DNA of 64,000 nt from a virus (IMGVR_UViG_3300008117_000018:1-64000), one strand, 5' to 3'. Numbered from the stretch's first letter, positions 759 through 59,559 are shown. The notes: generated from the letters alone by a model not told the origin. Program-made: numbers and translations.

Positions 759-1717
759 ATGAAAAAAATTGTTAAAAATTTTAATGGATTCAAAAAAATC
801 TACGAAAATGAATTGAACTCTGAAGATAAATCAACTGGTAAAATTGAGACAAAACCAGAAGAAGCGAAAAAGGCAGCTGAATTGATTAATCAATCAATTC
901 AACAAGATTCACAAAATGCGCCAATTAAAAATCTTTTAGATAAAATCGAGACACAATCTCAAAAAGAAATTAGAGAGGCTATTGATCCAAAATCCTTTAC
1001 TAAAGCAATTTCAGCATCAGATCCACAAAGTGAAGCTGAGTTAAAATCAAAAGTAGAAGCACTATTGAAAAAAATGCACCAAAACATCCTACATTTGGAA
1101 AGTTACAATATATAGATGTCAACAGTCAAATTCTCCGTTATGAGACCGCAAAAGGTTACAATTGGAATGCTGAATCCGGCATCGTTAGATTTGAAGTGAC
1201 TGAAAGTGAAAGAAAACATATTGAAAATATACTTTCTGAATCTGTTGCAAAACAAAAAACCCTTAAGTGGTTATCAGCAGCGGCACAAGTTTTAGGAGGA
1301 TCAATGTTTTTATTAGGAATAGGTATGATACTATATGGTGTAGGTAAGAGGAGTGAAATATATGGACGTATTCATGACGAATTAAATAGAAAGTTTGGAT
1401 TTTTAGACACAGACTCTGGTGCTGATTTTGCACCAAAACACCATTATGATCCTCAAAATTACGAAGACATGGGTATTGATCCTACTCATGATAAACTTCT
1501 TGATGAGTTGGAAAGAAAAGGTATGATATCTAATGTCTGGGTAGGCGGAGATGACTCGATGGACACTTTTGGAAAAAAAGAATACGGATATGTTTATAAC
1601 TGGGATAAAATTTTGACATCAGATCAATCAGCAGAGCTTAGTAGCAATGCCTTAACATTCATATTAGGTGGAGCAGTCACAAGCGGTGTAGGACCGACAG
1701 CCAATCTTATATTTTGA
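759..1717 (+). pseudogene. Leader-bearing membrane protein split by a -1 frameshift at the A7 run 1068-1074
   Basis: Frame of ORF 1196..1717 is open back to 1040 and overlaps ORF 759..1115; N-terminus MKKIVKNFNGFKKIYEN; TAAATATATA at 722-731. Confidence 0.55.
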
Positions 1718-2052
1718 CAATCTAAAGACTCTGCTTTTAACCACCAGTGACCTTTTTTATTAGAGCGAACTATAGTAGGATCGTATTTAACTACGACTTC
1801 TTTTCCATCAAAAAGGTCTCTTGCTTGTAAATAAATTTCATCATCTACAATATCGTTAATAAAAGTTAAGTGAGTTCCTCTTAAAGGTTTGTTTAAGAAT
1901 AAATTGAATCTTTTTTTCAAAAACCAAGAGTAGTATTCATAAAGGTCACAATCAAATTTTACGATAGCGACTTTTTTCCACGCAGATTGAGCATTGTGCT
2001 TTTTAGTCACATTGATTGGATCAAATACTATTTTTCCCTTCATCTCAAACAT
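1624..2052 (-). CDS. 2H-phosphoesterase-like protein, probably 3'-truncated
   Basis: One HxT motif (THLTF), second HxT absent; tail overlaps the opposite gene by 94 nt. Confidence 0.4.
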   Translation of the reverse strand: MFEMKGKIVFDPINVTKKHNAQSAWKKVAIVKFDCDLYEYYSWFLKKRFNLFLNKPLRGTHLTFINDIVDDEIYLQARDLFDGKEVVVKYDPTIVRSNKKGHWWLKAESLDCQNIRLAVGPTPLVTAPPNMNVKALLLSSAD

Positions 2053-2056
2053 AGAA

Positions 2057-2064
2057 CAAATATA
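2057..2064 (-). promoter_or_regulatory. Bacteroidota-type sigmaA -7 box TATATTTG
   Basis: Matches TAnnTTTG just upstream of the 1624..2052 start. Confidence 0.55.
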
Positions 2065-2083
2065 GTAATTTTTTTTAATATAT

Positions 2084-2479
2084 ATGTTTAATATGATATT
2101 TTGGTCAATAACAATAGCTAATATAGTTTGGATACTCTACTCTATCTCAGAGGGTGTAAGAGAAGGTTTTTTTACACATTATAAAAATCAGTGTAAAAGA
2201 AATAGTGAATACAAATGCTCAAATATATTCTATTTACAAAGAATTATAGTTTTACTCACTACATCTTCTATTTTAATTAGTGGTTTAGGTTTATTATATT
2301 CAATACCATTTATTTTAGGTCAAATTTCAATGTTTAATTTTTTTCATAAAATATCTTTAAAACAAACCTATAAAAAGATAAATTCAGAAGATATAAAAGA
2401 CGATAAAGAAAAATTATACAAACCACTAGTAATTAGTGGCATCGCACTACAAGTTTTTGTATATATATTCATGTTATGA
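2084..2479 (+). CDS. Hypothetical membrane protein
   Basis: ORF with several hydrophobic segments. Confidence 0.7.
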   Translation: MFNMIFWSITIANIVWILYSISEGVREGFFTHYKNQCKRNSEYKCSNIFYLQRIIVLLTTSSILISGLGLLYSIPFILGQISMFNFFHKISLKQTYKKINSEDIKDDKEKLYKPLVISGIALQVFVYIFML

Positions 2480-2643
2480 AAAAATTGACAAAAAACGAAA
2501 TAAAATTACTAAGAGAAAAATTCTTAGTGAAATTCTGTAAAGAAAAAAAATGGAATCCAAATGAACTGACTACTGGACAAATGTTAATTATATCAAAACA
2601 TCCTGATTACCTGAACCCAAAAAAAGAATCAATTCAATTTTAA
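2476..2643 (+). CDS. Small hypothetical protein (55 aa, not in ORF track)
   Basis: ATGA overlap with upstream stop; MKKLTKNEIKLLREKFLVKFCKEKKWNPNELTTGQMLIISKHPDYLNPKKESIQF*. Confidence 0.7.
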   Translation: MKKLTKNEIKLLREKFLVKFCKEKKWNPNELTTGQMLIISKHPDYLNPKKESIQF

Positions 2644-15321: not shown

Positions 15322-15594
15322 TTAATTATTCAAAAACATTAATATCTCATCTAAATTCTCTTTATTGAATCCGTGTAATGGTTTTCCACCATTTTTGAGA
15401 TAATCATTATATAATTCATTATATTGATCCTCTGTATAAAAGTTATCATCTATTTCGGAAAATATAATATTTGTGTCGTGTGATGTAATGGTCTTATTTT
15501 GTAGACGTGTCTCACCATAAGCAGGACCAACCGGACCAACAAGTTCCGTTCCAGAGACTTCTTCTAAAATAAATTCTTTAAATTTCTTAATCAT
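15322..15594 (-). CDS. Small protein with capsid-targeting-like leader
   Basis: MIKKFKEFILEE. Confidence 0.7.
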   Translation of the reverse strand: MIKKFKEFILEEVSGTELVGPVGPAYGETRLQNKTITSHDTNIIFSEIDDNFYTEDQYNELYNDYLKNGGKPLHGFNKENLDEILMFLNN

Positions 15595-34076: not shown

Positions 34077-35135
34077 ATGATTATAAAGAAATTTTCAGAA
34101 TTCAAATTAATATTAGAGAATACAGTAAGTCCTACTAGATTTAGAAACGCGAGTGTAGGTGATATAGTTGATTTTGTAGACCAATTTTTATACAATTCTA
34201 AAAATATAGATATAACCGAAAAAATAGCTGGACAACATCTTACCGTAACAATTAAAGATAATTTTGTCATGGTAAATACAAAAGACCAAATTTTATCAGG
34301 GCAATCTGGAAGAAATGCATCACACTCAAGATGGGGATCAGACATCACTAGACCACTCATAGACATAATTGCCAACCAAAAGTTACCAGATCAAACTTGG
34401 GGATTTGAGATACTAAATCCTCGTTCTAATCACGATTACATACAATATAAAAATGTAGATAAAATATACATTGAATACACTGGTAATCTATCTGAGGAGC
34501 TGGCAGAAGAAATAAGAAAAAAATTAAATACAGGAATAAAACTATTGACAAAAAAAGATATCAAAATTAATATCAATAAAAATCAAGCCTTTGAAGATTT
34601 CAAAAAAGTTTGGGAAGGTGGTTTAAGAAATGAATTCATATCAATGACTTTTAAAGACGATTATAAAGTAGGTAAACTAAAAGATATGATAGGTGATTTA
34701 CTAGATGAAGTAATTGTGTCTGTAGTTGATAAAGTATCACCAATTGAAGGAATTGTTATAGGAACTTCAACACCTATAAAACTACAAACTAATAAATTTT
34801 TAAAAATTCAACGAGTTCAAATGCCAATGTATTCAGTATTCAAAATTAGCAGACATGAAATTGACCAAGTAATGAATAACCCTACTACCTCTTTTGAACA
34901 ATTGAAAAATAAATTTGGCTTAAGATTAGACTCAATATATAGACAAAATCTGAGATATAGTTTATACGAAACTTTAAAATATTATCTTCAACAAAATGCT
35001 AAACTTGAAGGAACAGACACTTCTAAATACAAAAGATGGTTGTCAAGCGAAGAGTCAGAGAGTATGCTAAGAAAATTAACTCAACAAAATTGTAAAGAAA
35101 TATATTTAGAACTTTACAATAAAGTCAATTCTTAG
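34077..35135 (+). CDS. RNA-ligase-like nucleotidyltransferase with capsid-targeting-like leader
   Basis: ITEKIAG (motif I), WGFEI, PIEGIVI (motif IV), IKL (motif V); MIIKKFSEFKLILEN. Confidence 0.55.
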   Translation: MIIKKFSEFKLILENTVSPTRFRNASVGDIVDFVDQFLYNSKNIDITEKIAGQHLTVTIKDNFVMVNTKDQILSGQSGRNASHSRWGSDITRPLIDIIANQKLPDQTWGFEILNPRSNHDYIQYKNVDKIYIEYTGNLSEELAEEIRKKLNTGIKLLTKKDIKININKNQAFEDFKKVWEGGLRNEFISMTFKDDYKVGKLKDMIGDLLDEVIVSVVDKVSPIEGIVIGTSTPIKLQTNKFLKIQRVQMPMYSVFKISRHEIDQVMNNPTTSFEQLKNKFGLRLDSIYRQNLRYSLYETLKYYLQQNAKLEGTDTSKYKRWLSSEESESMLRKLTQQNCKEIYLELYNKVNS

Positions 35136-37551: not shown

Positions 37552-37576
37552 ATAGTTTATATTGTAATTATTTCTA

Positions 37577-37584
37577 CAAATGTA
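37577..37584 (-). promoter_or_regulatory. Bacteroidota-type -7 box TACATTTG for tmRNA
   Basis: TAnnTTTG about 25 nt upstream of G1; a TATATA tract overlaps it. Confidence 0.55.
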
Positions 37585-37612
37585 TATATAATATTATAAA
37601 ATACAAAAAAGT

Positions 37613-38011
37613 TTAGATATTATCTTCATATTTAAAATATATGTCCATTCTACACTCACCAGCATTATATTGAGAGTTTGGCTTATCAAAGGCAACACCA
37701 GTTCCCCAATACTTCGTCTTCTCTGAACTATATAGAAACTTATTATCTTTTAAATAATCAGAAACGACACCTATAACATCACTAACTTCATTCCAAGTTA
37801 ATTCACGAGATTCTTTTTTAAGTTTAATTATTATATAATAACCATTAGGACCTTTTCTATTACCAACTTTTACAAATCGAGACTCACCTTCAATATTTTT
37901 AAAATTCAATTCTAATAAAATATCATTAACAATAGGAGTAATATCATTAATAATCTCACTAACATCAGAATCTATTGATTCAAAAAATTTAAAATCTGTT
38001 AAATATCTCAT
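37613..38011 (-). CDS. Hypothetical protein with leader
   Basis: MRYLTDFKFFES. Confidence 0.7.
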   Translation of the reverse strand: MRYLTDFKFFESIDSDVSEIINDITPIVNDILLELNFKNIEGESRFVKVGNRKGPNGYYIIIKLKKESRELTWNEVSDVIGVVSDYLKDNKFLYSSEKTKYWGTGVAFDKPNSQYNAGECRMDIYFKYEDNI

Positions 38012-38014
38012 TAT

Positions 38015-38290
38015 TTAATTAAATACATCAGGAGAATCACCTTCTTCAGGTTCATATTCATCAGAGTCTAAACTCTTTATAATGTTTTCAACTTCTTCAT
38101 AAGAGTCATAATTTGTCCAAAGAGAACCTTTGCCAAACAATTCTTCAGCGTCTTCAGCATCTTTATAAGTTAGACCATCAGCCATCATTTTTGGAGTGAG
38201 TGCGAATATTCTAAAGTGGCTACCAACTCTATTTACAAAATATTTAACTTTATCGTTGTTAAAACTTTCAAATAATTTAATGTATTTCAT
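38015..38290 (-). CDS. Hypothetical protein with leader
   Basis: MKYIKLFESFN. Confidence 0.7.
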   Translation of the reverse strand: MKYIKLFESFNNDKVKYFVNRVGSHFRIFALTPKMMADGLTYKDAEDAEELFGKGSLWTNYDSYEEVENIIKSLDSDEYEPEEGDSPDVFN

Positions 38291-38302: not shown

Positions 38303-38872
38303 TTAGAAAGGCATTGTATCATCATCTAAGCCTTCATCTAAAGTAAAACCAAATGAAAGTATCCCACCACCAGATTTTGATTGCCAAATGTCAAATTCAG
38401 CATCATATTGAGCTAAAATATCTCTTTTAAGTTTGTTAGCGACTTCGAAAACTTTGATAACATTTCTTAATGTTTCCTTTTTAGCCATATGAACCTCTAT
38501 TACAATGTCTTCATTTCTTTTAGCGGTAATTTGCACATTATCAACTCCTGAATTTCTAAACATTTGACGAAGTAAATAAGTTAAATGCTGAACATCATCA
38601 TCTTCATCATCTTCATCATATCCATAATCATCATCATCATCATCATCAAACTTCGGATTTGATGATTTTTTTCCAGAATAGTATTTATCGTCTTCATCAT
38701 CATACCAATCATCATACTCACCATAATCTTTAGTAGAATCATCATCATACTCATAATCATCTTCTGGCCAACGTGCTTCATTTTTTTTATTAGCAGAAAG
38801 ACCATTGTTTAGATGACTAAATTCATCTTCTCTGATATTTTCTAAATATTTTATAAATGTTTTTATTTTCAT
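38303..38872 (-). CDS. Highly acidic protein with leader
   Basis: MKIKTFIKYLEN; long Asp/Tyr-rich tract. Confidence 0.75.
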   Translation of the reverse strand: MKIKTFIKYLENIREDEFSHLNNGLSANKKNEARWPEDDYEYDDDSTKDYGEYDDWYDDEDDKYYSGKKSSNPKFDDDDDDDYGYDEDDEDDDVQHLTYLLRQMFRNSGVDNVQITAKRNEDIVIEVHMAKKETLRNVIKVFEVANKLKRDILAQYDAEFDIWQSKSGGGILSFGFTLDEGLDDDTMPF

Positions 38873-38873: not shown

Positions 38874-40409
38874 TTATTTCAATTCTATTTTAAAATATGT
38901 CTCATCAAAGAATCCTAAATCCTCTATTTTATATTTGTTTAATATTGTTTGTACTCTAATTAGAGCATCATAAATTTCACCCATATCGGTTTCTTCTAAG
39001 TCTAAACTAACAAAGATTCTATCATCTTTACCAACAACTTTAACATCAATTCCAAAGACATTCTTTTTTATCTCATTAATCATGCTTTTATGCTTAGCAA
39101 ATAACTCTTCATTATAACCAACTTTTCTTTTAATTGGAAGTTTATTCCAATCAACTTTTACCGAAGCTTCAGCTAATCTTTTAAGGTAAGAAATATTTTG
39201 CATTTCTGTTCCTCTATGTTCATTATAATAACCAACTGATATATTTGTACATTCTGGTATGTCCTCCATTAATGACGCGGAATCTGTATAAACACCAGTT
39301 GGATCTAATGATAAATTTAATCCATTTTTATTATATTCATCACACAAAGCCTGACCAAATTCGTTAGAACAACATTGTCTACCTAATTGATGTGTTATAA
39401 CAGATGTTGTCCTTCTTCTATCAAAAGAAACACAAGCTTTTACATCAGTTAGATAATCACATCTATCATAAATAGATGAAAGAGCATTAGAACCAATACC
39501 ACCTCTCTCTTCACCAATAAAGAAGTAATAAATACCTGGAACATTATTAGCCATCATATATAACATAACAGCAGTACCAGCTTTATCATCAGCGCCTAAT
39601 ATTGAAGAGCCGTCGGTATAGATATGTTCATCACCAGTTCCACTTTTTATCAATCTAAATGAATAACCTTCTTCAACTACTCGACCATTGACTTGAAATA
39701 ATTTTGTCGTTTTTTGTTCTCTATCAGCCGTATCTAAATGACAAGTAAACATTATTGTTGGTTTTTCAGAACCAATTATTTTATAATAATTTCCAACTTG
39801 GTCTCTCTCAAGAGATGGTAAAAATTTTAAAACTTCCTTTTCATGTCTACAATCATCAAAATGTGGATATGTTTTTGTAGTTAATGAAAGAAAAGTTGCT
39901 TTAACATCTTTAGGATTATACGAAAACTCAGGAACCTTTATTCTTTGAGCTGAGGTAATTGATTCATCGCCAATATTATCAGATGTCATATCATTATATT
40001 GATATATGAATGACTTAATTTCATCTTCTGTTAATAATCCTGGCCAATAATATCTGAAAAATTTACCAATCTTCATATCAAATTTTTTACCACCAATAGT
40101 TACTTCAAAACAATAAGGTTTATTAGAAATAGTCACATCAGTTATACCTAAACCATTCTGGTACTTAGAATCAGACTCACCTAACCAAAGCATCTCAAAA
40201 GCAAGATAACTATCATTGTCTTCCATTTTTTTAAGAACTTTCTCTAATTCAGAAGATATTTTTATTCTAGCAGATCTATCAACATTTTTTGATTCATCAA
40301 AGACATCTTCTTTGCTTTTGTAACCACCACTTGGTTTGTAATCTTTAGCCTGGTCAACTACACTTTGTGTACCAGCTTCAAATATTTGACTATATTTTAA
40401 TAAATTCAT
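38874..40409 (-). CDS. M28/M20-like zinc metallohydrolase, paralog with leader and N-terminal extension
   Basis: HLDT, LGADDKAG, GEERG, FDRR, YTDS, GYYNEH; late promoter 40414-40423. Confidence 0.8.
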   Translation of the reverse strand: MNLLKYSQIFEAGTQSVVDQAKDYKPSGGYKSKEDVFDESKNVDRSARIKISSELEKVLKKMEDNDSYLAFEMLWLGESDSKYQNGLGITDVTISNKPYCFEVTIGGKKFDMKIGKFFRYYWPGLLTEDEIKSFIYQYNDMTSDNIGDESITSAQRIKVPEFSYNPKDVKATFLSLTTKTYPHFDDCRHEKEVLKFLPSLERDQVGNYYKIIGSEKPTIMFTCHLDTADREQKTTKLFQVNGRVVEEGYSFRLIKSGTGDEHIYTDGSSILGADDKAGTAVMLYMMANNVPGIYYFFIGEERGGIGSNALSSIYDRCDYLTDVKACVSFDRRRTTSVITHQLGRQCCSNEFGQALCDEYNKNGLNLSLDPTGVYTDSASLMEDIPECTNISVGYYNEHRGTEMQNISYLKRLAEASVKVDWNKLPIKRKVGYNEELFAKHKSMINEIKKNVFGIDVKVVGKDDRIFVSLDLEETDMGEIYDALIRVQTILNKYKIEDLGFFDETYFKIELK

Positions 40410-40809: not shown

Positions 40810-40836
40810 ATACTTATATATTAATTTATATAAAAC

Positions 40837-40884: not shown

Positions 40885-42609
40885 TTAGTTTAATAATCCA
40901 TAAGAATCAGAAACTTTAATAGTCATAAACTGTTTTTGTGGGAACCAACCAACTTCAGCAACAGCATATCTAGATCTCAACAACATTCTTGGAGCAAAAG
41001 TAGCCTCAGAAATCAAAGAGATTGATTGTGCCATTAAATAAGGTACGAAAATGATACCTGGTTGATCAGGATTGTTCTTTCTACCAAGAACGATTCTGTT
41101 ATCATTATATCTCATATATGGATCAACGTAGATAGAAATATCACCGATTGAACCAACAGGATATAATTGACCTTGTCCGTTTAACTTAGACTTAACTGGG
41201 TTAATAGTGTAACCAGAAATATCAGCTAAAGCAGCAGCAAGACCCCCGTTTGTGATAAGGTATTGAGCTGGACCTACACGACCTTCAGTTGCAATGTAGT
41301 TAGAAGCGTGAGCAATTTTAGTGATAAGTTTTCTTTGTACGGCGTGAGTAGTTTCACCACCAACTGTACTAGTTACATAAGTAGTATCTAAGTCAAAGAT
41401 TGTTTGGCTAGCAATATTAGTTGAGAAAGTTAATCCAGCTAAAGGCGCGCTAGTTCTGTTAAGATCACCCATTTCAAAAATCTTAGCAACGATTTGCTTA
41501 GAAATTGTTTGAGATAATTCATTAACAAGAATAGATTCCATTTTTTGAACGATATCCATACCTGTGTTAGCTTTGATATCTTCAATTTCAGTTCTTCTAA
41601 GAGCTGAAGATACTTCAATAGTACCAACTGCGATAGTTTTAGAAGAGATTTTTGGTCCGATAACTCCAGAATATCTTGAGTCATCTTGATCTCTATCCAT
41701 TGGATATTGTCCAGAGAATTGAGAAGTTGAACCAGAGTTCCAGTTTGCAGAAAAACCAGGGATATGATCTTCTAACGCAGAAACCAATTCGATTGCAGGC
41801 TCACCACCTAAAGCAGTACCACCTAAAGCAATGATTTGAGAAGCCATAGACGTTGTAGAATCAAATGTATTTCTTGTTGTATCAAAAGCCCAAGTTGTAG
41901 CTGCAGAACCAACCGCTGTATGAGACGTGTTGAATTGTCTGTAAGCTCTGAACATTGGATAACCATCAATTCTTGAGAATCCTAAAAATTCAACTTTATT
42001 TTCTTTATCAGATGGCTCTGAAGTAATTGCAGCACCTGTATCGATGTTATTCCAAATTCTACCATTTAAACCACCTGTAGTTTCGCTAATAACTGGAGAA
42101 GAAGCTGCTAACTGAGCTCTAAGACCAGCGATAACTGCTGTTAATTTAGTAGAAGTCAATCCTGCTGTTTTAGGAGCAATTTTGAAAACTTGTGGTCTTT
42201 CATCTTCATTTCCTAAACGAGTATCATCGTATTGGAAGTCGATGTAAAGAAGGTCGATTTTCGGACCTGGAGATGGTTTAACAGCAACAAGGTCAAGACC
42301 GATTGTTTGAGCAGCAATTTTCATAGCTACAGGAAGTAAGTTTTGACCTACATCTCCTGAACCATTTGAACCACCAAAACCAGCCCAATTGTTACCAATT
42401 GTTGAACCAGCTAAAGTTGAAGGTTGTGGAGCAACAACACCACCCATACCAGCAACGTTAGAAGCATTCACATAAGCGTTCTCGTTGATTGAGTGGAACT
42501 CAGCATATTCTGACATCCAATCAATTCTCTCACCAGTAACACCCATGTTCTCAAGAACTGGAGACCATTTCTTGATAGCTTTAGATTTGTCTATTCTAAT
42601 GTGTGACAT
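40885..42609 (-). CDS. Major capsid protein (T4 gp23-like)
   Basis: KKWSPVLE N-terminus, DLVAVKP, IYVDPY, GIIFVPY, TFAPRMLLRSRYA; follows the protease gene. Confidence 0.93.
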   Translation of the reverse strand: MSHIRIDKSKAIKKWSPVLENMGVTGERIDWMSEYAEFHSINENAYVNASNVAGMGGVVAPQPSTLAGSTIGNNWAGFGGSNGSGDVGQNLLPVAMKIAAQTIGLDLVAVKPSPGPKIDLLYIDFQYDDTRLGNEDERPQVFKIAPKTAGLTSTKLTAVIAGLRAQLAASSPVISETTGGLNGRIWNNIDTGAAITSEPSDKENKVEFLGFSRIDGYPMFRAYRQFNTSHTAVGSAATTWAFDTTRNTFDSTTSMASQIIALGGTALGGEPAIELVSALEDHIPGFSANWNSGSTSQFSGQYPMDRDQDDSRYSGVIGPKISSKTIAVGTIEVSSALRRTEIEDIKANTGMDIVQKMESILVNELSQTISKQIVAKIFEMGDLNRTSAPLAGLTFSTNIASQTIFDLDTTYVTSTVGGETTHAVQRKLITKIAHASNYIATEGRVGPAQYLITNGGLAAALADISGYTINPVKSKLNGQGQLYPVGSIGDISIYVDPYMRYNDNRIVLGRKNNPDQPGIIFVPYLMAQSISLISEATFAPRMLLRSRYAVAEVGWFPQKQFMTIKVSDSYGLLN

Positions 42610-42693: not shown

Positions 42694-44784
42694 TTATAAA
42701 TTTTTGAATCTTTCTAAGATTGCTTGAGCTTCATTGTCTGAGATTTTATCTTCTTGGATAAGTGCCTCATGTGAAACTAATTTCTTAGTAACTGATTCAT
42801 TCTTTTTGAGATTTCTAGTCAACCAGAAATGCTCAACTTGTGCTTCAGTTTTTAATACATCTTCTGGATAAAGTCTTGCTTGAGAAAGCAATGATTTTTT
42901 AGAAGACTCATTTAACTGATTCCAGACTGGCTTAACGTTTTCAGGCATCAATCTGATAACTCTTTCTTCAAGAGTCTCGTTCTTAGTTGATAATGCTTCT
43001 GCGATCAGACCTAACACATCTTTCTGTGTGAAATAACTTCTTTCGTTTATGTGAAGTTTTACAGTTTCCTGTTCTTCGTCTGATAATGCATAAAAGCTAT
43101 CTACTTGTGACTTGTTTAAGAACTTTAAGAAATTCAAGTCAGTAGTTTCAGAAACTTTACGTTTTTTAGCTTCTTCAATAAGTTTATTAATAGATTCTGA
43201 TAATTCAGTATCGTCTTTTCCTGTTACTTCGTAAGAAGATGGACCACATTCTTCCTCTTCTTCCTCTTTATTATGAACGTGAGTCGCTTCAGCAGCTGGA
43301 ACACCATTCATGTTATATTCTGCTTCTTCATCATCTTCTTTATTCCAAGAATTTTCTTTTTCATCATCTTCAACCATTTCAAAACCAGCAGCGTTTAAAG
43401 AAGGAAATGCACCTTCTGATTCGAATAATTTACCACCATTTAATTTTTCAACGATTAATCCTTGATAAGAAATTGATTTATCTAAGCTTTCAGCGATGTA
43501 TTCAGAGTAAGCAATATTATCATCTAAATGTTCAGCGATGTATTCAGAGTAAGCAATATTACCTTCAACATGCTCTGCTAAATACTCAGAATAAGCAATA
43601 GAATTATCAACATGTTCAGCTATATACTCAGCATAAGCAATGTTTTTATCTAAGTTTTCAGCGATGTATTCAGAGTAAGCAATATTTTTGTCTAAGTTTT
43701 CAGCCAAATATTCAGAGTAAGCAATATTTTTGTCTAAGTTTTCAGCCAAATATTCAGAATAAGAAATGTTTTTGTCTAAGTTTTCAGCGATATATTCAGA
43801 ATAAGAAATATTCTTATCAAGATTCTCAGCTAAATACTCTGAGTACTCAATATTTTTATCTAAATTTTCAGCAACATACTCTGTGTAATTAATAGCCTTT
43901 TCTAAGTTTTCAGCTAAATAATCATTGTGTTTAACTAATTTTTCAGTCGTAGATTTAAGAGATTTGTTCTCATTTACAACAACTTGAATTTTCTCAGCTA
44001 AATAATCTAAGTATTTTACCACTTTAGAATTTGTCTCGTTTAACTCCTCATAATACTCAAGTAGTTGTTCTAATTTTTTAGGACTCATATTTCCTTTAGA
44101 AATTGCATTTTTGACTTCTTTCTTAGTAGAGGCAATCTCATTTACTAAGTATTGTGAATAATCAGTCAACTGTTTTTTTGTTACGAATTCGTTTTTGTTC
44201 ATGTTGAATAATTCATTTATTTTAGACTCGTCGGACATTTCATATATCCTAAAGTTAGATTGTGGATTGTATCCTAAGGACTCATTCAAAACTTTAACAC
44301 TCATTTTTGCAGAAGCAAAACCTGGGTCAGCTACTATATCATATGTGAAAAGTTTTTTCAAAGAAACAGAACCATCAGATTCAGTGATACCAGCTGCTCT
44401 TGATGATACAAATACTGGACAACCATCATCAACCAAAGCCTTTGCCTCTTTACCCCAATAAGTTGATAAAAGTTTAATTTCACCAGATACTAAGTTTTGT
44501 TCTTTAATGTATTGCGCTTTAGTGATTGTGTGAGATGCTCTTGCCAAAGATGTATCAAAAACATCTGGGTGGTCAAATTCACCATAAACAGCACCTAAAC
44601 TATTCATTCTTTCGTTTAATTCATCTAAGGCAGGAAGGAATTTATCTGCAGTATAGATTCTTTCGTTTCTATTCTTAACACCAAATTCCGTGAATGTACC
44701 TCCTAAGATATAATCCTTCTTACTAGAAGAATTTTCTCTAATAAGAGAATTAGTTGAGTTTTCTACTATTAAAACTGGTTTCAT
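42694..44784 (-). CDS. Prohead protease (gp21-like) fused to coiled-coil scaffold
   Basis: NRNERIY, GEFDHP, SHTI, VSSRAAG, TYDIVADPGF; C-terminal repeats. Confidence 0.9.
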   Translation of the reverse strand: MKPVLIVENSTNSLIRENSSSKKDYILGGTFTEFGVKNRNERIYTADKFLPALDELNERMNSLGAVYGEFDHPDVFDTSLARASHTITKAQYIKEQNLVSGEIKLLSTYWGKEAKALVDDGCPVFVSSRAAGITESDGSVSLKKLFTYDIVADPGFASAKMSVKVLNESLGYNPQSNFRIYEMSDESKINELFNMNKNEFVTKKQLTDYSQYLVNEIASTKKEVKNAISKGNMSPKKLEQLLEYYEELNETNSKVVKYLDYLAEKIQVVVNENKSLKSTTEKLVKHNDYLAENLEKAINYTEYVAENLDKNIEYSEYLAENLDKNISYSEYIAENLDKNISYSEYLAENLDKNIAYSEYLAENLDKNIAYSEYIAENLDKNIAYAEYIAEHVDNSIAYSEYLAEHVEGNIAYSEYIAEHLDDNIAYSEYIAESLDKSISYQGLIVEKLNGGKLFESEGAFPSLNAAGFEMVEDDEKENSWNKEDDEEAEYNMNGVPAAEATHVHNKEEEEEECGPSSYEVTGKDDTELSESINKLIEEAKKRKVSETTDLNFLKFLNKSQVDSFYALSDEEQETVKLHINERSYFTQKDVLGLIAEALSTKNETLEERVIRLMPENVKPVWNQLNESSKKSLLSQARLYPEDVLKTEAQVEHFWLTRNLKKNESVTKKLVSHEALIQEDKISDNEAQAILERFKNL
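43480..43925 (-). repeat. About 10 tandem 42-nt (14-aa) repeats AENLDKNIAYSEY(L/I)
   Basis: Visible in both DNA and protein. Confidence 0.9.
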
Positions 44785-45360: not shown

Positions 45361-45370
45361 TAAAACTTCT

Positions 45371-47685: not shown

Positions 47686-48116
47686 GGTTTTATAAGATAA
47701 CAACCACTAAACACCAAAGAGAGATTGATGAAATAATTATGTCTATGTCATCAACAGAGGTAGATTATGTATCAACATTATACAACAAGATATCAATGGT
47801 TGAGTTTACCGATGAAAAAGAATACGAATGTATGTTTGCCATTCTAGACAAATATCTATTAAATAAGATATCTGAACTATATCTAAAATACTCTATCGAT
47901 CATAAAATATTTGATTTGACAAAGGATATTATTTTTGATAATAATTTAAAATTATCATATAAAAACTATAGAAATCAACCAGTTAAGAATGAAGTTCTAA
48001 AACTTATTAAATTGTTCAAAAAAGACTGGACTACAAAAGATGATGTTTTGGATAAAATACTAGAAAAAGGAATCAATTCATTATCAGATTTTGATTTAGA
48101 AATTCTGAACTCTTAG
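47682..48116 (+). CDS. Hypothetical protein
   Basis: C-terminal DDVLDKILEKGINSLS motif. Confidence 0.7.
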   Translation: MRFYKITTTKHQREIDEIIMSMSSTEVDYVSTLYNKISMVEFTDEKEYECMFAILDKYLLNKISELYLKYSIDHKIFDLTKDIIFDNNLKLSYKNYRNQPVKNEVLKLIKLFKKDWTTKDDVLDKILEKGINSLSDFDLEILNS

Positions 48117-49834
48117 AATTCAAACTCTCCACCACCTTCTCCACCACCTTCAGCAGGAGCTTCTCCACCACCTTCAGCAGGAGCTTCACCTTCAGCAGGA
48201 GCCGCTTCACCACCTTCCGCAGGAGCTGCCTCACCGCCTTCAGCCGGAGCTGCCTCACCACCCTCTGCAGGAGCAGCACCAGCTGCACCAGCCGCGACAT
48301 TCGCCACATCTCTAGCCCAATATCTTTCATTTTCAGCCTTCTGTTCAGGTGTTAGTTTGAATACATTATCCATAATCCATTCAATATGGAAATAAGGTTT
48401 TTCACCATTCATAACTCCTAATAAAGTTCCAACAATCTCAGATCTTTTAGACAGATTATTGATTTTCTTCCAATCTTCAAATAGTTGATTAGAATAGAAT
48501 TGAATATCTACCTGATTTGTGAAAACTTCATCATCTTTCAGTTCAGGAAACTCTATCAACATCTGTAGTTTCAGAGGTTTCACTATCAATTCTTTAAAGT
48601 TAGCACGTAATCTTGAAATGAAATTGTGAAATTTAATTTCATCTCTAGTCATTTCTGATGAGTCTCCAAATAAATTTCCACCACCATTCTCAGCCTCAAA
48701 TCGTTGCATAGGTATCTTAGAGGCTCTTTTAAGAGCTTTATAAAACCAAGATAGCATAGTTTCATCATTCAAATCATGACCCTGTGGAGAAACTAATTCC
48801 ATATTCGGAGTTCCAGCATCACCTTCAGGAAACCATATTTGTTTATTATAAGGTAAATGCTTGGCGCCATTAATAGTCAAAGTTCCTAAAGAATCATCCC
48901 ATTCAACTTCTTCTGAATAATCATGAATAAGTTGACCTATTTGTTCCTCAGCTCTTTGTCTTGATAAACCTTTGATTGGAATCGTGAATTTTTGATATAC
49001 AGTCGCATTTACTATATTGAACATAATTCTTGTTTGTTCAAGTATTTTTAATTGATTATAAGGCTTTATTAAACCCTCAACATAAGATGTCTCTGAATAA
49101 TCATTTTGTGTAGAGTAGGAGACATAAATAATCTGAGAATCTAAAAATATTCTTCTTAATTGAGGATCTTCAGGAAACTGAATCCATAGATGTCCTATAG
49201 TTGGTTCATATGCCGGAACTAAAGTGTCAGGTCTCAATCTATTAAAACCAATAATGTTTTTCTTTTTATCATCAAAAATTATTTCTATTGCAATATGACC
49301 ATCAATTAGAAAATCTTTCATCATACTCCAAGCAGTTATATTATCAGAAAATCCAAATTTGTTATAAATTTTCTCAAAATATTCTTGATATTTGTCTCTT
49401 ACCTCTTGAGAATATTCATTTGAAATAGATTTAGGAGCACAAAAGTCACTATCATCATTGAAAACAATAGATTCATCACAAATTGTAGAAACAAAATCTC
49501 TTATTTCATCTTTGATTGAATATTCTCTTAATATTCTTCTTTTATCAGCATATGCTTTATCTAAATAAGGTATAGATTTTCTGTTCAAAACAGACGCAAC
49601 TGCTCTTTGAGAAAAGAAATCATACATCGAGTTACCTTTAGCCGCATATGGATCTTCATTTATACCAATACCAACTTGATTACGAATTATCATATCATCG
49701 TAATTCATTCCATAGTTAGAAAGTGTTCTGAGAATCCTAGAAAATAATCCTTTGTTTTCTACTGCAGAATTAGAAGCAAATGCAAAGTTTGAATTATTTT
49801 GTTGAGTGGAACCAAAATTGTTATAAGTTGCCAT
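48113..49834 (-). CDS. Portal protein (T4 gp20-like)
   Basis: FLIDG, IKPYNQLKILE, RASKIPMQRF, EMTRDEIKF.NFI.RLR..F. Confidence 0.93.
   Translation of the reverse strand: MATYNNFGSTQQNNSNFAFASNSAVENKGLFSRILRTLSNYGMNYDDMIIRNQVGIGINEDPYAAKGNSMYDFFSQRAVASVLNRKSIPYLDKAYADKRRILREYSIKDEIRDFVSTICDESIVFNDDSDFCAPKSISNEYSQEVRDKYQEYFEKIYNKFGFSDNITAWSMMKDFLIDGHIAIEIIFDDKKKNIIGFNRLRPDTLVPAYEPTIGHLWIQFPEDPQLRRIFLDSQIIYVSYSTQNDYSETSYVEGLIKPYNQLKILEQTRIMFNIVNATVYQKFTIPIKGLSRQRAEEQIGQLIHDYSEEVEWDDSLGTLTINGAKHLPYNKQIWFPEGDAGTPNMELVSPQGHDLNDETMLSWFYKALKRASKIPMQRFEAENGGGNLFGDSSEMTRDEIKFHNFISRLRANFKELIVKPLKLQMLIEFPELKDDEVFTNQVDIQFYSNQLFEDWKKINNLSKRSEIVGTLLGVMNGEKPYFHIEWIMDNVFKLTPEQKAENERYWARDVANVAAGAAGAAPAEGGEAAPAEGGEAAPAEGGEAAPAEGEAPAEGGGEAPAEGGGEGGGEFEF
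48130..48290 (-). repeat. PAEGGEAA x~6 low-complexity portal tail
   Basis: 21-24-nt imperfect tandem repeats. Confidence 0.85.
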
Positions 49835-53333: not shown

Positions 53334-53699
53334 TTAAATAGAATGTAGTCCTTGGCCATCATTACTACCTTCTATAGATATTAATTTTATTTGATTCTCA
53401 TTATCACCCTTTTTCTTATACAACTCATTAAAACCCTTAGCTATTCCTCTTTTAAAGACTTCTGTAAAATAAGCAAAAGCATTCACTGATTTATCTTCAT
53501 TAAAATTATACCAATTTTGATACATATCTAATAAACCCGATTGATAACAATCAAGTTTATCATCATTTGACCAATATCTCATTTTTTTGATTGTTTTCTT
53601 ACCAAGAAGTTCTAACATTTTTTCAGCATTTCTGGTCAGTTTACCTTGTGCTTTTGATACGATTATCTCAACATAGAGATCTTTATTATTTAAATACAT
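53334..53699 (-). CDS. Late-transcription sigma factor (T4 gp55-like, short)
   Basis: YLNNKDL, NWYNFN..KS.NAFAYFT. Confidence 0.8.
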   Translation of the reverse strand: MYLNNKDLYVEIIVSKAQGKLTRNAEKMLELLGKKTIKKMRYWSNDDKLDCYQSGLLDMYQNWYNFNEDKSVNAFAYFTEVFKRGIAKGFNELYKKKGDNENQIKLISIEGSNDGQGLHSI

Positions 53700-57373: not shown

Positions 57374-57748
57374 ATGCCAGTAAACTTTAAAGATTTCTAC
57401 ATAGGATATAAAGGTCATCCAAGATACGAATCTTCTAAATTTATAGAAGATGATGTAATTAGAGTAATCGTTCAAAAATATGAAATGATAATTTTCACTA
57501 ACAAAGGTGAGTTATTAGGTGATCCTAGTTTTGGTGCTGATTTACCGCTATTACTTCATGAGACAAGACTCTCAGAAGATAGTATACAAGGCGATATAAA
57601 CGCTCAAATATTTGAATATATACCTGAAATAAGTAATATACCCTATACTTTAGAGGTCAATATTTATGATGATCCAGAAAGACACCAAGAGTGGATGGAA
57701 ATTCTTTTTCAGATTAGAGACTTAGAAGTATACGCAACAGTAATCTAA
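57374..57748 (+). CDS. Baseplate wedge protein (gp25-like)
   Basis: FTNKGE..GDP.FGADL..LL, EYIPE. Confidence 0.8.
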   Translation: MPVNFKDFYIGYKGHPRYESSKFIEDDVIRVIVQKYEMIIFTNKGELLGDPSFGADLPLLLHETRLSEDSIQGDINAQIFEYIPEISNIPYTLEVNIYDDPERHQEWMEILFQIRDLEVYATVI

Positions 57749-58197
57749 TCTACTCTATAACTATTTCTTTGCCAATATCTTTTACCATAACCGACAAATA
57801 TTTCTTCACCGGAACGAATATCTCTATCAGCAACTAAAACAACTTCATCATCATCATTCATTGTTATGATAGAATTATTTTTGAAATTTGAAGAGATACC
57901 CTCCGCATCATTTGCAAATTTCGCAAAACAAAAAGTTTTCTTACAATCTAATGTTTCACCAGACGGCAACATCATAAAATAATCATCTTCTTTTGCATTT
58001 GCTCTTTTTGCGGCCTCTTCATTTGATATTACTTCACCCATAAATTTTGATATTACTTCACCACATTCTATATCTATAGATGTAAAGAGTCCATTTCCGG
58101 AATTTGGAATTTGAGAAGACTGTACATATAAAAAATCTTCTTCTGGTAAATCTATTGAGTCGTAATCGAAATTTTCAAAAAATTTAAGATATTTCAT
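57745..58197 (-). CDS. SET-domain lysine methyltransferase with leader
   Basis: SQIPNSGNGLF, GEVI, AKFAND, RDIRSGEEIFVGYG..YW; MKYLKFFENF. Confidence 0.88.
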   Translation of the reverse strand: MKYLKFFENFDYDSIDLPEEDFLYVQSSQIPNSGNGLFTSIDIECGEVISKFMGEVISNEEAAKRANAKEDDYFMMLPSGETLDCKKTFCFAKFANDAEGISSNFKNNSIITMNDDDEVVLVADRDIRSGEEIFVGYGKRYWQRNSYRVD

Positions 58198-58210
58198 ATA
58201 CACTTAGGCT

Positions 58211-58825
58211 TTATTTGATAGGACAACTTGTGGCTGTCCAGATATATTTATAGTCTCTTTTTATTTTAACTCCTAAACTTTCAGCGGTTGTTACAACATC
58301 CTCCAAACACTCACCATCAGCACCACCAACTATTACTACCTCTCTTCCTTTAAGATCGGTAAGTAATTCATAAAGTTTTTTAGGACAATGAAACCAAACG
58401 TGATTGTTGTTGATAAAAGTAATTATTGTACCTTCTTTTGTTGGAAATATATCACCTTTTTTTAAAGACTTATTTTCTTCCCTTTTGCTAATGTCTTCAT
58501 ATACATTTTTATCTAATATTTTCTTGTAAAAATCAGCATCAACATCGTAATTATATCTTTTTTCAATTAATTCTTTTTGATTAGGAAAATGGTACAAATC
58601 TTTGTGTATTGGAATTTCAGGTTCATCTTCATATAAATAATCTTTATCTACGTTTTTACCATCAGGATGATTATCCCAAATTTGATAAACATTATTAAAA
58701 TTTTTACAATATTTTTTAAGTTCATTTAGATACATTTCAGAAAAAAACTTTCTGAATGATTTTTGAACATCAACTATTATTAGCGTATCTTCATTATAAC
58801 TCTCAAAGGTTTTAAGAAATCTCAT
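58211..58825 (-). CDS. Isochorismatase/cysteine-hydrolase-like protein with leader
   Basis: LIIVDVQ, EK.Y, IVGGA..EC; MRFLKTFESYNE. Confidence 0.7.
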   Translation of the reverse strand: MRFLKTFESYNEDTLIIVDVQKSFRKFFSEMYLNELKKYCKNFNNVYQIWDNHPDGKNVDKDYLYEDEPEIPIHKDLYHFPNQKELIEKRYNYDVDADFYKKILDKNVYEDISKREENKSLKKGDIFPTKEGTIITFINNNHVWFHCPKKLYELLTDLKGREVVIVGGADGECLEDVVTTAESLGVKIKRDYKYIWTATSCPIK

Positions 58826-58841
58826 AAACTATATATTAAAT

Positions 58842-58867
58842 AAAAAACCCATCATTTCTGATGGGTT
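58842..58867 (-). terminator. Intrinsic terminator
   Basis: AACCCATCA-tttc-TGATGGGTT with a T run on the minus strand. Confidence 0.75.
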
Positions 58868-58887
58868 ACTTAAATATTTTAATTAGA

Positions 58888-59559
58888 TTAAGCCGGTAGT
58901 TCTTCCTCACCCTCTTCCTCTTCTTGTGCTTGACCCTGTCCTTGTGCTTGACCCTGTCCTTGTGCTTGACCCTGTCCTTGTGCTTGACCCTGTCCTTGTG
59001 CTTGACCCTGTCCTTGTGCTTGAGGTTCTTCAAATTCACCTTCTTGAGCTTGAGCTTGACCTTGTGCTTGACCTTGTCCTTGTGCTTGACCTTGTGGCTG
59101 TGCTTGACCTTGTCCTTGTGCTTGACCTTGTCCTTGTGCTTGACCTTGTCCTTGTGCTTGACCTTGTGGTTGTGCTTGACTTTGTGGCTGTGCTTGACCT
59201 TGTGGCTGTGCTTGCATTTGAGCCTCACCTTCTACTTCAACTTGCGGTTGAGATTGAGATGATTGTCCCTGAGCTTGACCACCCATAAGAGCATTACCTG
59301 GAAGCTTTTCAACGTCCAAATTATTCATATTAATATATTTAACAATTTCCTCGGCGATATCAACATCCCCAAAAAATTGGCGTAAATTCTTACCTGTTGT
59401 ATCTTTTACTTTTTTAACATAAGCATTGATTAATGACTGAGGAATGTCAATCATTGTCTTAACTTTATAGATATCGTTTACTTGTAAAACAGATTCTTTT
59501 ATAATCTCTTCTCTGTTTTTTCTAATACGATAACTTTCAAATGTTCTAATGTGCTTCAT
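58888..59559 (-). CDS. Leader-bearing protein with Gln/Gly/Ala low-complexity tail
   Basis: MKHIRTFESY; (QGQGQA)n; late promoter 59584-59593. Confidence 0.8.
   Translation of the reverse strand: MKHIRTFESYRIRKNREEIIKESVLQVNDIYKVKTMIDIPQSLINAYVKKVKDTTGKNLRQFFGDVDIAEEIVKYINMNNLDVEKLPGNALMGGQAQGQSSQSQPQVEVEGEAQMQAQPQGQAQPQSQAQPQGQAQGQGQAQGQGQAQGQGQAQPQGQAQGQGQAQGQAQAQEGEFEEPQAQGQGQAQGQGQAQGQGQAQGQGQAQGQGQAQEEEEGEEELPA
58924..59215 (-). repeat. 18-nt tandem repeats encoding QGQGQA/QPQGQA
   Basis: tgtgcttgacc(c/t)tgtcct units. Confidence 0.9.

What the first reader, a model, noticed from the sequence alone, without database searches (positions are those of the whole stretch)
759..59559. About 20 unrelated proteins share a capsid-targeting-like N-terminal leader: a large packaged and injected cargo system
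Seen: N-termini MKHLKKFNEE (28050), MKHLKRFNES (33035), MKHLKTYTEY (29259), MKHIRTFESY (59559), MKYLKYFES (40809), MKYLKFFENF (58197), MKYIKLFESF (38290), MRFLKTFESY (58825), MIKKFKEFILEE (15594), MIKTFSQFIKES (30498), MIIKKFSEFKLILEN (34077), MKRLNTYMNFINEE (27691), MKIKTFIKYLEN (38872), MRYLTDFKFFES (38011), MNLLKYSQIFEA (40409), MKFIRDFSKFRELRINEA (32972), MKKIVKNFNGFKKIYEN (759) and weaker ones, grafted onto otherwise unrelated domains. Almost all lie in TTAATATATA-driven units, and the genes with TAnnTTTG promoters lack the leader. Known: T4 internal proteins carry a 10-aa capsid-targeting sequence (MKTYQEFIAE type) that the gp21 protease cleaves after Glu, and a gp21-like protease is encoded here. 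Inference: the leader is a portable address tag that loads enzymes (SET methyltransferase, NFACT-R, Nudix, ART/PARP-like, RNA-ligase-like, M28 hydrolase, isochorismatase-like) into the head for delivery with the DNA before any phage gene expression.
Basis: partly seen in the sequence, partly recalled or inferred. Interest (0 to 1): 0.92.

Follow-up and report, generated by a model that had tools for sequence, protein, structure and literature searches.

The report
Capsid-loading tag on many megaphage proteins
About one in five genes on this fragment of an uncultivated giant phage starts with a short tag that closely resembles the signal phage T4 uses to load proteins into its head, so the phage probably packs, and perhaps injects, an unusually large set of proteins; no experiment has tested this.

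Summary
All 17 listed N-termini are at the stated coordinates. In the whole 111-kb contig, 19 N-termini cluster by similarity, against 0.2 to 0.9 in controls. The carrier proteins share nothing beyond the tag.

The tag has two interchangeable forms:
- Class I: MK[YH][LI][KR]x[FY][EN][ES].
- Class II: MIKK[FY]xxF[IL]xE, nearly the T4 capsid-targeting sequence MKTYQEFIAE.

A scoring matrix trained on this contig finds 111 tagged ORFs of 937 in the complete 635-kb relative LR745206. Only 3 of 3,179 internal Met positions score as well. After trimming the tag, these proteins form 102 unrelated families.

Tagged genes sit in late-promoter units (79/111 vs 239/826, p=1e-17) and avoid host-type promoter units (4/111 vs 223/826).

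The head module is T4-type: gp23-like capsid protein, gp20-like portal, gp55-like late sigma factor, and a gp21-like protease. The protease is fused to a repeat scaffold packed with [LI]-A-E cut motifs.

Most likely (about 0.6) the tag is a capsid-targeting propeptide. Packaging, cleavage and injection are untested. The ART assignment is only a lead; the isochorismatase and RNA-ligase assignments found no support.

This scan noted the same tag earlier on other huge-phage DNA. No paper in the library I searched describes it.

The parts
28050..28259 (+). Class I tagged gene (MKHLKKFNE|E), 69 aa, no known domain
   Evidence: Orthologue in LR745206 keeps the tag.
29259..29747 (+). Class I tagged gene (MKHLKTYTE|Y), 162 aa. 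True start is the internal ATG of ORF 29211-29747.
33035..33436 (+). Class I tagged gene (MKHLKRFNE|S), 133 aa. Late motif 23 nt upstream.
38015..38290 (-). Class I tagged gene (MKYIKLFE|S), 91 aa
40426..40809 (-). Class I tagged NFACT-R protein (MKYLKYFE|S), 127 aa, directly downstream of the capsid gene. Late motif 5 nt before the ATG.
   Evidence: Pfam NFACT-R_1 1.5e-17, residues 21-117. Cellular homologues align only from about residue 17; phage-like homologues carry tags.
57745..58197 (-). Class I tagged SET-domain protein (MKYLKFFE|N), 150 aa
   Evidence: Pfam SET 1.2e-12, residues 34-138
58211..58825 (-). Class I tagged 204-aa protein (MRFLKTFESYNE|D), fold unconfirmed. Tag conserved across 120 metagenomic orthologues, followed by a variable linker.
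   Evidence: AF2 puts the first strand at residue 15 and residues 1-8 at low confidence. No fold match.
58888..59559 (-). Class I tagged 223-aa protein (MKHIRTFES...IKE|S)
   Evidence: Orthologue keeps the tag.
37613..38011 (-). Class I variant (MRYLTDFKFFE|S), 132 aa
30498..32972 (-). Class I-like tag with a second Glu site (MKFIRDF...RINE|A) on an 824-aa protein. N-terminal domain is possibly of the ART superfamily.
   Evidence: Invariant Y27-H28-R29-T30, G123, E156 in 18 homologues. Atlas hits to RES and ART-PolyVal clusters at 0.90-0.91, a lead only. AF2 model poor.
15322..15594 (-). Class II tag (MIKKFKEFILE|E) on an acidic 90-aa protein in a late operon
   Evidence: Orthologue starts MIKKFYQFINE.
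30007..30498 (-). Class II tagged Nudix hydrolase (MIKTFSQFIKE|S), 163 aa
   Evidence: Pfam NUDIX 6.7e-16, residues 19-132
34077..35135 (+). Class II-like tag (MIIKKFSEFKLILE|N), 352 aa, no domain found. Late motif 4 nt before the ATG.
38303..38872 (-). Class II-like tag (MKIKTFIKYLE|N), 189 aa, acidic
27691..28053 (+). Class II-like tag (MKRLNTYMNFINE|E), 120 aa
759..1115 (+). Weak candidate (MKKIVKNFNGFKKIYE|N), 118 aa
   Evidence: Below the similarity threshold.
28268..29254 (+).
   Evidence: No hydrophobic-x-Glu site.
38874..40409 (-). Weak candidate (MNLLKYSQIFE|A) on a 511-aa metallopeptidase-like protein. The LR745206 orthologue lacks these first ~41 residues.
   Evidence: phrog_4191 peptidase 9e-66; PepT-like 6e-8
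42694..44784 (-). Head maturation protease (residues 4-230) fused to a repeat scaffold-like C-terminal region, 696 aa. N-terminus has LIVE-8 and LIRE-17.
   Evidence: phrog_207 5.9e-30. BLASTP to T4 gp21 gives 27% identity, E=6e-5, with GEFDHP and VSSRAAG aligned to GELNHP and VSSRGLG.
43477..43914 (-). 42-bp x 10.4 tandem repeat encoding 14-aa units, most containing EY[LI]AE|N
   Evidence: 15 [LI]xE motifs in 240 aa against 3.2 expected. Conserved in LR745206 and LR756501.
40885..42609 (-). T4 gp23-type major capsid protein, no tag. Its propeptide carries VLE-20, YAE-37 and INE-43.
   Evidence: Pfam Gp23 1.2e-27. KWSPVLE|N parallels T4 KWKPLLE|G.
48113..49834 (-). T4 gp20-type portal, no tag. 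Late motif 25 nt upstream.
   Evidence: Pfam Portal_T4 6.2e-58
53334..53699 (-). gp55-like late sigma factor
   Evidence: phrog_234 1.6e-6
40815..40824 (-). Example of the late-promoter motif T[TA]A[AT]TATATA, 5 nt before the NFACT-R ATG. There are 38 copies in the contig; 28 lie in the 4.5% that is intergenic, and 28 lie within 60 nt upstream of a same-strand start.

Best explanation
The tag is a capsid-targeting propeptide of the T4 kind. Late in infection, tagged proteins are made together with the head proteins. The first roughly 7 residues (Lys2, Leu/Ile4, Phe/Tyr7 in class I; K-x-[FY]-x-x-F-[IL] in class II) dock them onto the protease-scaffold core while the gp23-type shell closes around it. 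The gp21-type protease then cuts after the Glu that ends the tag and chops the repeat scaffold at its many [LI]-A-E sites, leaving the cargo in the head. By analogy with T4 internal proteins and Alt, at least part of the cargo leaves with the DNA.

Shown here: the tag, its portability, its late-gene linkage, the T4-type head and late-transcription genes, and the cut-motif-rich scaffold.

Inferred: docking, cleavage, retention and injection.
For: 1. Sequence match to the T4 signal.
- T4's capsid-targeting sequence is MKTYQEFIAE (PMC8442874). Residues 4 and 7 are needed for targeting and 8 and 10 for processing. The propeptides are 10-19 aa and the cut motif is L/I-x-E (PMC9026906).
- Here positions 4 (L/I, 96%) and 7 (F/Y, 97%) are the most conserved. 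The first Glu falls at 8, 9 or 11 and is followed by S, N, G, A or E.
- Class II (MIKK[YF]xQFIKE|S) shares K, Y/F, F, I and E with T4 at the same spacing.

2. Homologous machinery.
- gp23-type capsid protein and gp20-type portal.
- gp21-type protease with the T4 GELNHP and VSSRGLG motifs aligned.
- Scaffold-like repeats with 15 [LI]xE motifs against 3.2 expected.
- gp55-like late sigma factor.
- The capsid propeptide site KWSPVLE|N parallels T4 KWKPLLE|G. T4 gp22 carries IFE|S, LFE|S and LAE|N motifs like the tag ends.

3. Cut-type motif at the tag end. A hydrophobic-x-Glu motif lies in residues 5-17 of 19/23 tagged vs 21/86 other proteins (p=5e-7). In LR745206 it is 90/111 vs 261/826 (p=1e-23).

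4. Late co-expression. Strict motif 20/23 vs 36/86 here. In LR745206, 79/111 vs 239/826 (p=1.3e-17), with host-type promoter units at 4/111 vs 223/826 (p=5.6e-10).

5. Portability.
- Bodies are unrelated. The 111 tagged LR745206 proteins form 102 BLAST families.
- Orthologues swap tag class.
- Fusion proteins carry the tag at the new N-terminus, while RqcH-type cellular homologues align only from about residue 17.
- The tag is conserved and followed by a variable linker in 120 orthologues.

6. Not a compositional effect. Class I is absent from the 735-kb LR756501 and from Lak-B6. Codon usage at tag positions matches the genome.
Against: - There are no virion, cleavage or ejection data; the phage is uncultivated.
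- The scale has no precedent: 111 class I plus 22 regex-matching class II tagged proteins in LR745206, 12-17% of ORFs. SPN3US heads hold about 50 protein species (PMC7411985).
- Tagged proteins are not basic as T4 internal proteins are (median pI 5.5).
- The commonest short class I ending, x-F-E|S, has no Leu/Ile at P3. Strict [LI]xE is present in only 11/23 here and 41/111 in LR745206.
- A tagged ClpP is an odd item to send through a tail.
- LR756501 has nearly the same scaffold repeat but no class I tags. The repeat therefore cannot be a class-I-specific receptor.
- Tagged genes are spread over the whole LR745206 genome.
Confidence: 0.6

Rival explanations
1. The tag is an address or recognition peptide for a different late process. 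Candidates are a phage-encoded chaperone, modifying enzyme or protease, timed degradation (the phage encodes ClpS-like and, in its relative, ClpP proteins), or attachment somewhere else on the virion.
For: - The number of carriers (12-17% of ORFs) is larger than any known head proteome.
- Carriers are acidic to neutral.
- A ClpS-like gene sits at 61215-61505, and a tagged ClpP exists in LR745206.
- Earlier scan notes on other phage tags ended with an enzyme-recognition reading rather than capsid sorting (leads only).
- Class I is missing from LR756501 despite the same scaffold repeat.
Against: - No partner gene was identified that tracks the tag.
- The tag matches the T4 capsid-targeting sequence at the genetically mapped positions and ends in a head-protease-type motif.
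- The only homologous, experimentally defined system with such a tag is the T4 prohead core, and its machinery is encoded here.
Confidence: 0.22
2. The conserved N-terminus is an expression element. It would be a nascent-peptide or 5'-coding feature that boosts translation of late, often leaderless, mRNAs in a host without Shine-Dalgarno use.
For: - Many late motifs end only 4-5 nt before the ATG, so the 5' coding region could matter for initiation.
- The tag residues use A/T-rich codons.
Against: - Codon choice at tag positions mirrors genome-wide synonymous usage.
- Late structural genes with the same promoter and spacing (tail-fibre-like 87033, 88906, 90792; portal; capsid protein) lack the tag.
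- Genes inside operons carry it.
- Conservation runs to residues 9-11 and ends in E-[SNAG].
- Two AT-rich huge phages, Lak-B6 of Prevotella and LR756501 (host not recorded), lack class I.
Confidence: 0.06
3. The similarity is due to chance in AT-rich N-termini or to common descent of whole genes (paralogue families).
For: - Some tagged genes lie in tandem arrays, and a few are paralogues (8 small BLAST clusters among 111).
- K, N, F, I, Y and E are favoured by 28% GC.
Against: - Shuffle and internal-Met controls.
- 94 of 111 are singletons after trimming the tag.
- Different Pfam domains follow the tag.
- No similarity beyond the tag.
Confidence: 0.02

Closest known systems
[quoted passage not shown]
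   Same: - A 10-19 aa N-terminal tag on otherwise unrelated proteins.
- Hydrophobic or aromatic residues at positions 4 and 7.
- Glu at the end, followed by a small residue.
- A gp21-family protease, a cleavable scaffold core, gp23 and gp20 homologues, and late expression.
- The tagged gene set is variable between relatives.
- Class II is nearly the T4 sequence.
   Different: - Scale: about 20 tagged genes on 111 kb, and 111 class I tags plus at least 22 class II tags in a 635-kb relative, against a handful in T4.
- Two or more interchangeable tag classes.
- Carriers include enzymes (SET, Nudix, NFACT-R, peptidases) and are not basic.
- The protease and scaffold are one polypeptide with 14-aa repeats.
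- The short class I ending lacks Leu/Ile at P3.
- Nothing has been shown experimentally.
Long N-terminal propeptides of head and ejection proteins in giant phages phiKZ, 201phi2-1 and SPN3US (PMC5694885, PMC7411985)
   Same: Giant phages with a diverged gp21-like protease that cuts after Glu, and many internal or ejected head proteins whose propeptides are thought to target them to the prohead.
   Different: Those propeptides are mostly 79-130 aa or more (one, gp45, is 20 aa), are not a shared short consensus tag, and have cut motifs of A/S/G-x-E. SPN3US heads hold about 50 protein species in total, 8 of them shown to be cleaved. They infect Pseudomonadota and have a different head lineage.
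Cargo-loading peptides of encapsulins (HK97-fold shells). This comparison rests on my own background knowledge, not on a tool result.
   Same: A short portable peptide directs unrelated enzymes into an HK97-fold protein shell.
   Different: Encapsulin peptides are usually C-terminal, bind the shell protein directly, are not removed by a protease, and the cargo is not delivered to another cell.

Membership tests
T4-type capsid targeting sequence system | Short (10-19 aa) N-terminal peptide shared by otherwise unrelated proteins | tested here: met
   Replicated in LR745206.
T4-type capsid targeting sequence system | Targeting determinants at residues 4 and 7 (hydrophobic or aromatic), as mapped in T4 IPIII (PMC9026906) | tested here: met
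   L/I at position 4 in 96% and F/Y at position 7 in 97% of 105 tags. This is conservation only, not function.
T4-type capsid targeting sequence system | Tag ends in the prohead protease cut motif (L/I-x-E in T4) | tested here: inconclusive
   Hydrophobic-x-E is present in 19/23 and 90/111 tagged proteins. Strict [LI]xE is present in only 11/23 and 41/111. The short class I ending x-F-E|S does not fit the strict motif.
T4-type capsid targeting sequence system | gp21-family serine protease with catalytic His and Ser | tested here: met
   phrog_207 5.9e-30. BLASTP to T4 gp21 E=6e-5, with GEFDHP/VSSRAAG aligned to T4 GELNHP/VSSRGLG, the blocks I recall holding the catalytic His and Ser. The Pfam S77 match alone is below cut-off.
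T4-type capsid targeting sequence system | Cleavable scaffold core inside a gp23/gp20-type prohead | tested here: met
   Capsid protein and portal by Pfam. Repeat region with 15 [LI]xE against 3.2 expected, fused to the protease. The scaffold role itself is inferred.
T4-type capsid targeting sequence system | Co-expression with head genes from late promoters | tested here: met
   Promoter-motif association. gp55-like sigma factor. No transcript data.
T4-type capsid targeting sequence system | Tagged proteins are physically incorporated into proheads and the tag is removed | not testable with these tools
   Needs virion proteomics and N-terminomics, or reconstitution.
T4-type capsid targeting sequence system | Cargo is ejected into the host with the DNA | not testable with these tools
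   Needs infection experiments. No cultured member of the clade is known (PMC9723777).
ADP-ribosyltransferase (Alt-like packaged ART), for gene 30498-32972 | ART fold with catalytic H-Y-E or R-S-E residues | tested here: inconclusive
   No Pfam or NCBIfam hit. Invariant H28/R29, Y122-G123 and E156. Atlas neighbours are RES and ART-PolyVal clusters at 0.90-0.91. AF2 pLDDT 57.
Isochorismatase-like hydrolase, for gene 58211-58825 | Isochorismatase/nicotinamidase fold and family profile match | tested here: not met
   No Pfam or NCBIfam match. Foldseek found no match at E<=0.001; a nicotinamidase appears only at rank 39. The model is of low confidence.

The most novel reading that the evidence does not exclude
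This clade of uncultivated megaphages uses a T4-derived N-terminal address code, with interchangeable lineage-specific variants, to load more than a hundred different, mostly unknown proteins (12-17% of the proteome) into the head and deliver them with the DNA. If so, the injected 'first-minute' proteome of an uncultivated virus could be read directly from its sequence.
Probability: 0.35. Interest if true: 0.9.

Novelty: new variant of a known kind. Interest (0 to 1): 0.78.

Why it matters
If the tag works as in T4, it is a sequence-only marker for proteins that a phage carries in its head and probably injects. It would then point to hundreds of candidate host-takeover and anti-defence proteins in phages that cannot be grown. 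Only 6 of 111 tagged proteins in LR745206 have any Pfam domain.

It would also show that T4's small internal-protein system can be scaled up about 30-fold in megaphages. That may help explain what huge heads and huge genomes are used for.

The tag and its protease-scaffold partner also make a compact system that can be tested by reconstitution without culturing the phage. Such a system could be of use for loading proteins into capsids.

Tried and rejected
- **Chance or AT bias:** rejected by the internal-Met, shuffle and six-frame controls and by the absence of class I from LR756501 and Lak-B6.
- **DNA-level repeat or promoter cassette:** rejected, because synonymous codons vary as in the rest of the genome.
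- **Paralogy:** rejected.
- **Distant cellular homologues of the 204-aa protein:** the word-indexed search returned only orthologues of 78% identity or more. It was useful for tag conservation but not for showing that cellular homologues lack the tag. The representative search with NFACT-R did that job.
- **AF2 models of 58211-58825 and of residues 1-330 of 30498-32972:** both were poor (pLDDT 63.6 and 57.3). Foldseek on the first gave nothing significant. The second was not searched because the model is unreliable.
- **Sequence search of the protease against PDB:** found only designed coiled coils matching the repeat region. The direct comparison with T4 gp21 worked.
- **The genome search 'relatives':** not available for a virus record.
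- **Co-variation of tag class with the scaffold repeat:** none seen, since LR756501 has the same repeat but no class I tags.
- **Library search** for 'capsid targeting' together with megaphage, huge-phage or jumbo-phage terms: none of the 15 top-ranked hits contains the phrase 'capsid targeting'.

Full report
**What the DNA is**

The window is the first 64 kb of a single 111,418-bp virus contig of about 28% GC. CheckV rates the contig about 44% complete. Its capsid and protease genes are 75-77% identical in DNA to the uncultivated 'megaphages' LR745206 (635 kb) and LR756502, and about 70% identical to LR756501 (735 kb). Gene order is shared with LR745206. None of these phages has been cultured, and their hosts are not firmly known (PMC9723777).

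The head and late-transcription genes are of the T4 type:
- Major capsid protein at 40885-42609 (Pfam Gp23, 1e-27) and portal at 48113-49834 (Portal_T4, 6e-58).
- Head maturation protease at 42694-44784 (phrog_207, 6e-30).
- Late sigma factor like gp55 at 53334-53699, a clamp loader, a gp25-like baseplate protein and the large terminase.

**Check of the observation**

The similarity is far beyond chance:
- The simple pattern M[KR]x[LI][KR]x[FY] fits 10 of 109 ORF starts and 1 of 543 internal Met. That one is 29259, the probable true start.
- Without any prior motif, 19 N-termini have a mean top-5 similarity of 15 or more. Internal-Met windows give 0.2 on average and shuffled N-termini 0.9.
- A profile of 12 core tags, run over all six frames, scores above 9 bits only at those 12 seed ORF starts; the best other site, none an ORF start, scores 7.3.
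- With the first 20 residues removed, no two of the 23 candidates are significantly alike.
- Different Pfam domains follow the tag: SET, NFACT-R and Nudix.

I grade the 23 candidates as 12 strong class I, 3 to 5 class II, and about 6 weak.

**Anatomy of the tag**

Class I reads M1-K2-[YH]3-[LI]4-[KR]5-x6-[FY]7-[EN]8-[ES]9. A longer form inserts K-[IL]-F before the Glu, as in MKHLKTYKIFE|S. Class II reads M-I-K-K-[FYW]-x-x-F-[IL]-x-E-[SEN].

The two classes are exchangeable on the same protein body:
- The NFACT-R protein has class I here and MIKKYKLFKEG in LR745206.
- The Nudix protein has class II here, and its nearest LR745206 homologue has class I.

Further properties:
- Codon choice at the conserved positions matches genome-wide usage. 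K is AAA in 74% of tags and 74% of the genome, and Leu4 is spread over five codons. Selection therefore acts on the peptide.
- In 120 metagenomic orthologues of gene 58211-58825, the tag is conserved, a 3-5 residue linker varies, and the body then begins with its first strand.

**Independent replication in a complete genome**

I fetched all of LR745206 and called 937 ORFs.
- A scoring matrix trained only on this contig's 12 class I tags finds 99 first-ATG and 12 near-start hits. Internal Met positions give 3 hits in 3,179.
- A codon-level pattern gives 85 matches against 7 for its reversed control.
- After trimming 20 residues, the 111 proteins fall into 102 BLAST families, 94 of them singletons.
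- Only 6 have a Pfam domain: Nudix (2), DUF6576 (2), ClpP and an M15 peptidase.
- Class II adds at least 22 more.

- 79 of 111 tagged genes lie in units headed by T[TA]A[AT]TATATA, against 239 of 826 other genes (p=1.3e-17).
- Only 4 of 111 lie in units headed by the host-type TAnnTTTG box, against 223 of 826 (p=5.6e-10).
- On this contig all 23 candidates are in late units, 20 of them with the strict motif against 36 of 86 other genes (p=9e-5).
- The same motif precedes the portal and tail-fibre-like genes, and 28 of its 38 copies sit in the 4.5% of the contig that is intergenic.

**Is it a general Bacteroidota or AT-rich habit?**

No. The class I codon pattern occurs 8 times on this contig with 0 in the control. 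It occurs 0 times in the 735-kb LR756501 and once in the 547-kb Prevotella phage Lak-B6.

LR756501 instead carries class II-type tags such as MIKKYKIFE, MIKTFDEFINES and MIKRFNNFVKES. In its first 200 kb, about 40 of 248 ORFs carry them, where shuffles give at most 1 to 4. The tag system is therefore shared by the clade, with lineage-specific variants.

**Link to T4**

The T4 facts come from papers:
- The T4 capsid targeting sequence is MKTYQEFIAE (PMC8442874).
- Residues 4 and 7 are needed for targeting, and residues 8 and 10 for processing.
- Such propeptides are 10-19 residues, and gp21 cuts after L/I-x-E (PMC9026906).
- T-even phages carry diverse internal proteins that share only this tag (PMC3012670).

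The parallels here are:
- Positions 4 and 7 are the most conserved. The first Glu lies at 8, 9 or 11 and is followed by S, N, G, A or E.
- Class II shares K, Y/F, F, I and E with the T4 tag at identical spacing.
- The protease domain aligns with T4 gp21 at 27% identity (E=6e-5), with GEFDHP on GELNHP and VSSRAAG on VSSRGLG.
- The C-terminal 460 residues of the protease protein hold a 14-residue unit repeated about ten times (43477-43914). Most units contain EY[LI]AE|N, giving 15 [LI]xE motifs in 240 residues against 3.2 expected. I read this as a protease-scaffold fusion that is chopped up as T4 gp22 is.
- The protease N-terminus has LIVE-8 and LIRE-17, like LIE-9 of gp21.
- The capsid propeptide has KWSPVLE|N where T4 gp23 has KWKPLLE|G.
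- T4 gp22 contains IFE|S, LFE|S and LAE|N motifs, the same as many tag ends.
- A hydrophobic-x-Glu motif lies in residues 5-17 of 19/23 tagged against 21/86 other proteins here. In LR745206 the figures are 90/111 against 261/826.

**Do cellular homologues have the tag?**

I searched the NFACT-R protein against 1.8 billion representatives.
- The long bacterial RqcH-type proteins align only from about residue 17 of the query.
- Several short homologues start directly with the domain.
- Many short, phage-like homologues begin with class I or class II tags.
- Several two-domain fusions carry the tag at the new N-terminus rather than in front of the NFACT-R part.

This is the behaviour expected of an address label that must sit at the extreme N-terminus.

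**What remains uncertain**

- Nothing shows that the proteins are in virions, are cut, or are injected.
- The number of carriers (12-17% of ORFs) exceeds any known head proteome. SPN3US has about 50 head protein species (PMC7411985).
- The carriers are not basic.
- The commonest class I ending lacks Leu/Ile at P3.
- LR756501 has the same scaffold repeat without class I tags, so that repeat is not a class-I-specific receptor.
- The enzyme labels 'isochorismatase-like' and 'RNA-ligase-like' were not confirmed.
- 'ART/PARP-like' rests on conserved H/R, Y-G and E residues and on language-model neighbours only.

**Verdict**

The best explanation, at about 0.6, is a T4-type capsid-targeting propeptide system expanded to megaphage scale, with two interchangeable tag classes and a protease-scaffold fusion. 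The main rival, at about 0.2, is an address tag for another late process.

In the library I searched, none of the 15 top-ranked hits links 'capsid targeting' with huge phages. Earlier notes of this scan report the same tag on other huge-phage DNA and on the second window of this genome. I treated those notes as leads, not as evidence.

Noticed in passing
window 42694-44784 (repeat at 43477-43914): The head protease is fused to a long C-terminal region with about ten 14-aa repeats (..YSEY[LI]AENLDKNI..). It looks like a protease-scaffold fusion and is conserved in LR745206 (707 aa) and LR756501 (807 aa).
   Followed up: partly
window 36900-37800: Other first-stage notes place a tmRNA at 37177-37450. 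ARAGORN finds no tRNA or tmRNA in the whole window, and Rfam finds nothing at E<=0.01 in 36900-37800. A roughly 490-nt stretch without an ORF (37124-37612) remains unexplained.
   Followed up: partly
whole contig, e.g. 27677-27686, 34063-34072, 40815-40824, 58830-58839: The late motif T[TA]A[AT]TATATA comes at two spacings from the ATG. One is 4-5 nt, suggesting leaderless mRNAs; the other is 19-29 nt.
   Followed up: partly
window 44959-47248: Between the protease and portal genes, on the opposite strand, sit a homing-endonuclease-like gene (133 aa; phrog_5104 and phrog_12131) and a 625-aa nuclease (phrog_13933, 5.6e-144). They interrupt the T4-like head gene order.
   Followed up: no
LR745206 (L005-L017): Among the class I tagged proteins of the complete relative are a full ClpP protease (Pfam 6.6e-54) and an M15 cell-wall peptidase. 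Runs of up to about a dozen consecutive tagged small genes occur, e.g. 450.9-458.3 kb.
   Followed up: no
LR756501 first 200 kb (L021-L024): The 735-kb phage lacks class I tags entirely, but about 15% of its ORFs start with class II-type tags. Several bodies share a DPYGEE motif soon after the tag.
   Followed up: no
window 30498-32972: The public protein collection holds this gene as an 809-aa product (P0272, 100% identical over the region compared), against 824 aa from the first ATG. This suggests automatic gene calls may sometimes clip the tag.
   Followed up: no
window 61215-61505: A ClpS-like adaptor gene (phrog_27368, 7.5e-8) lies next to the large terminase gene.
   Followed up: no
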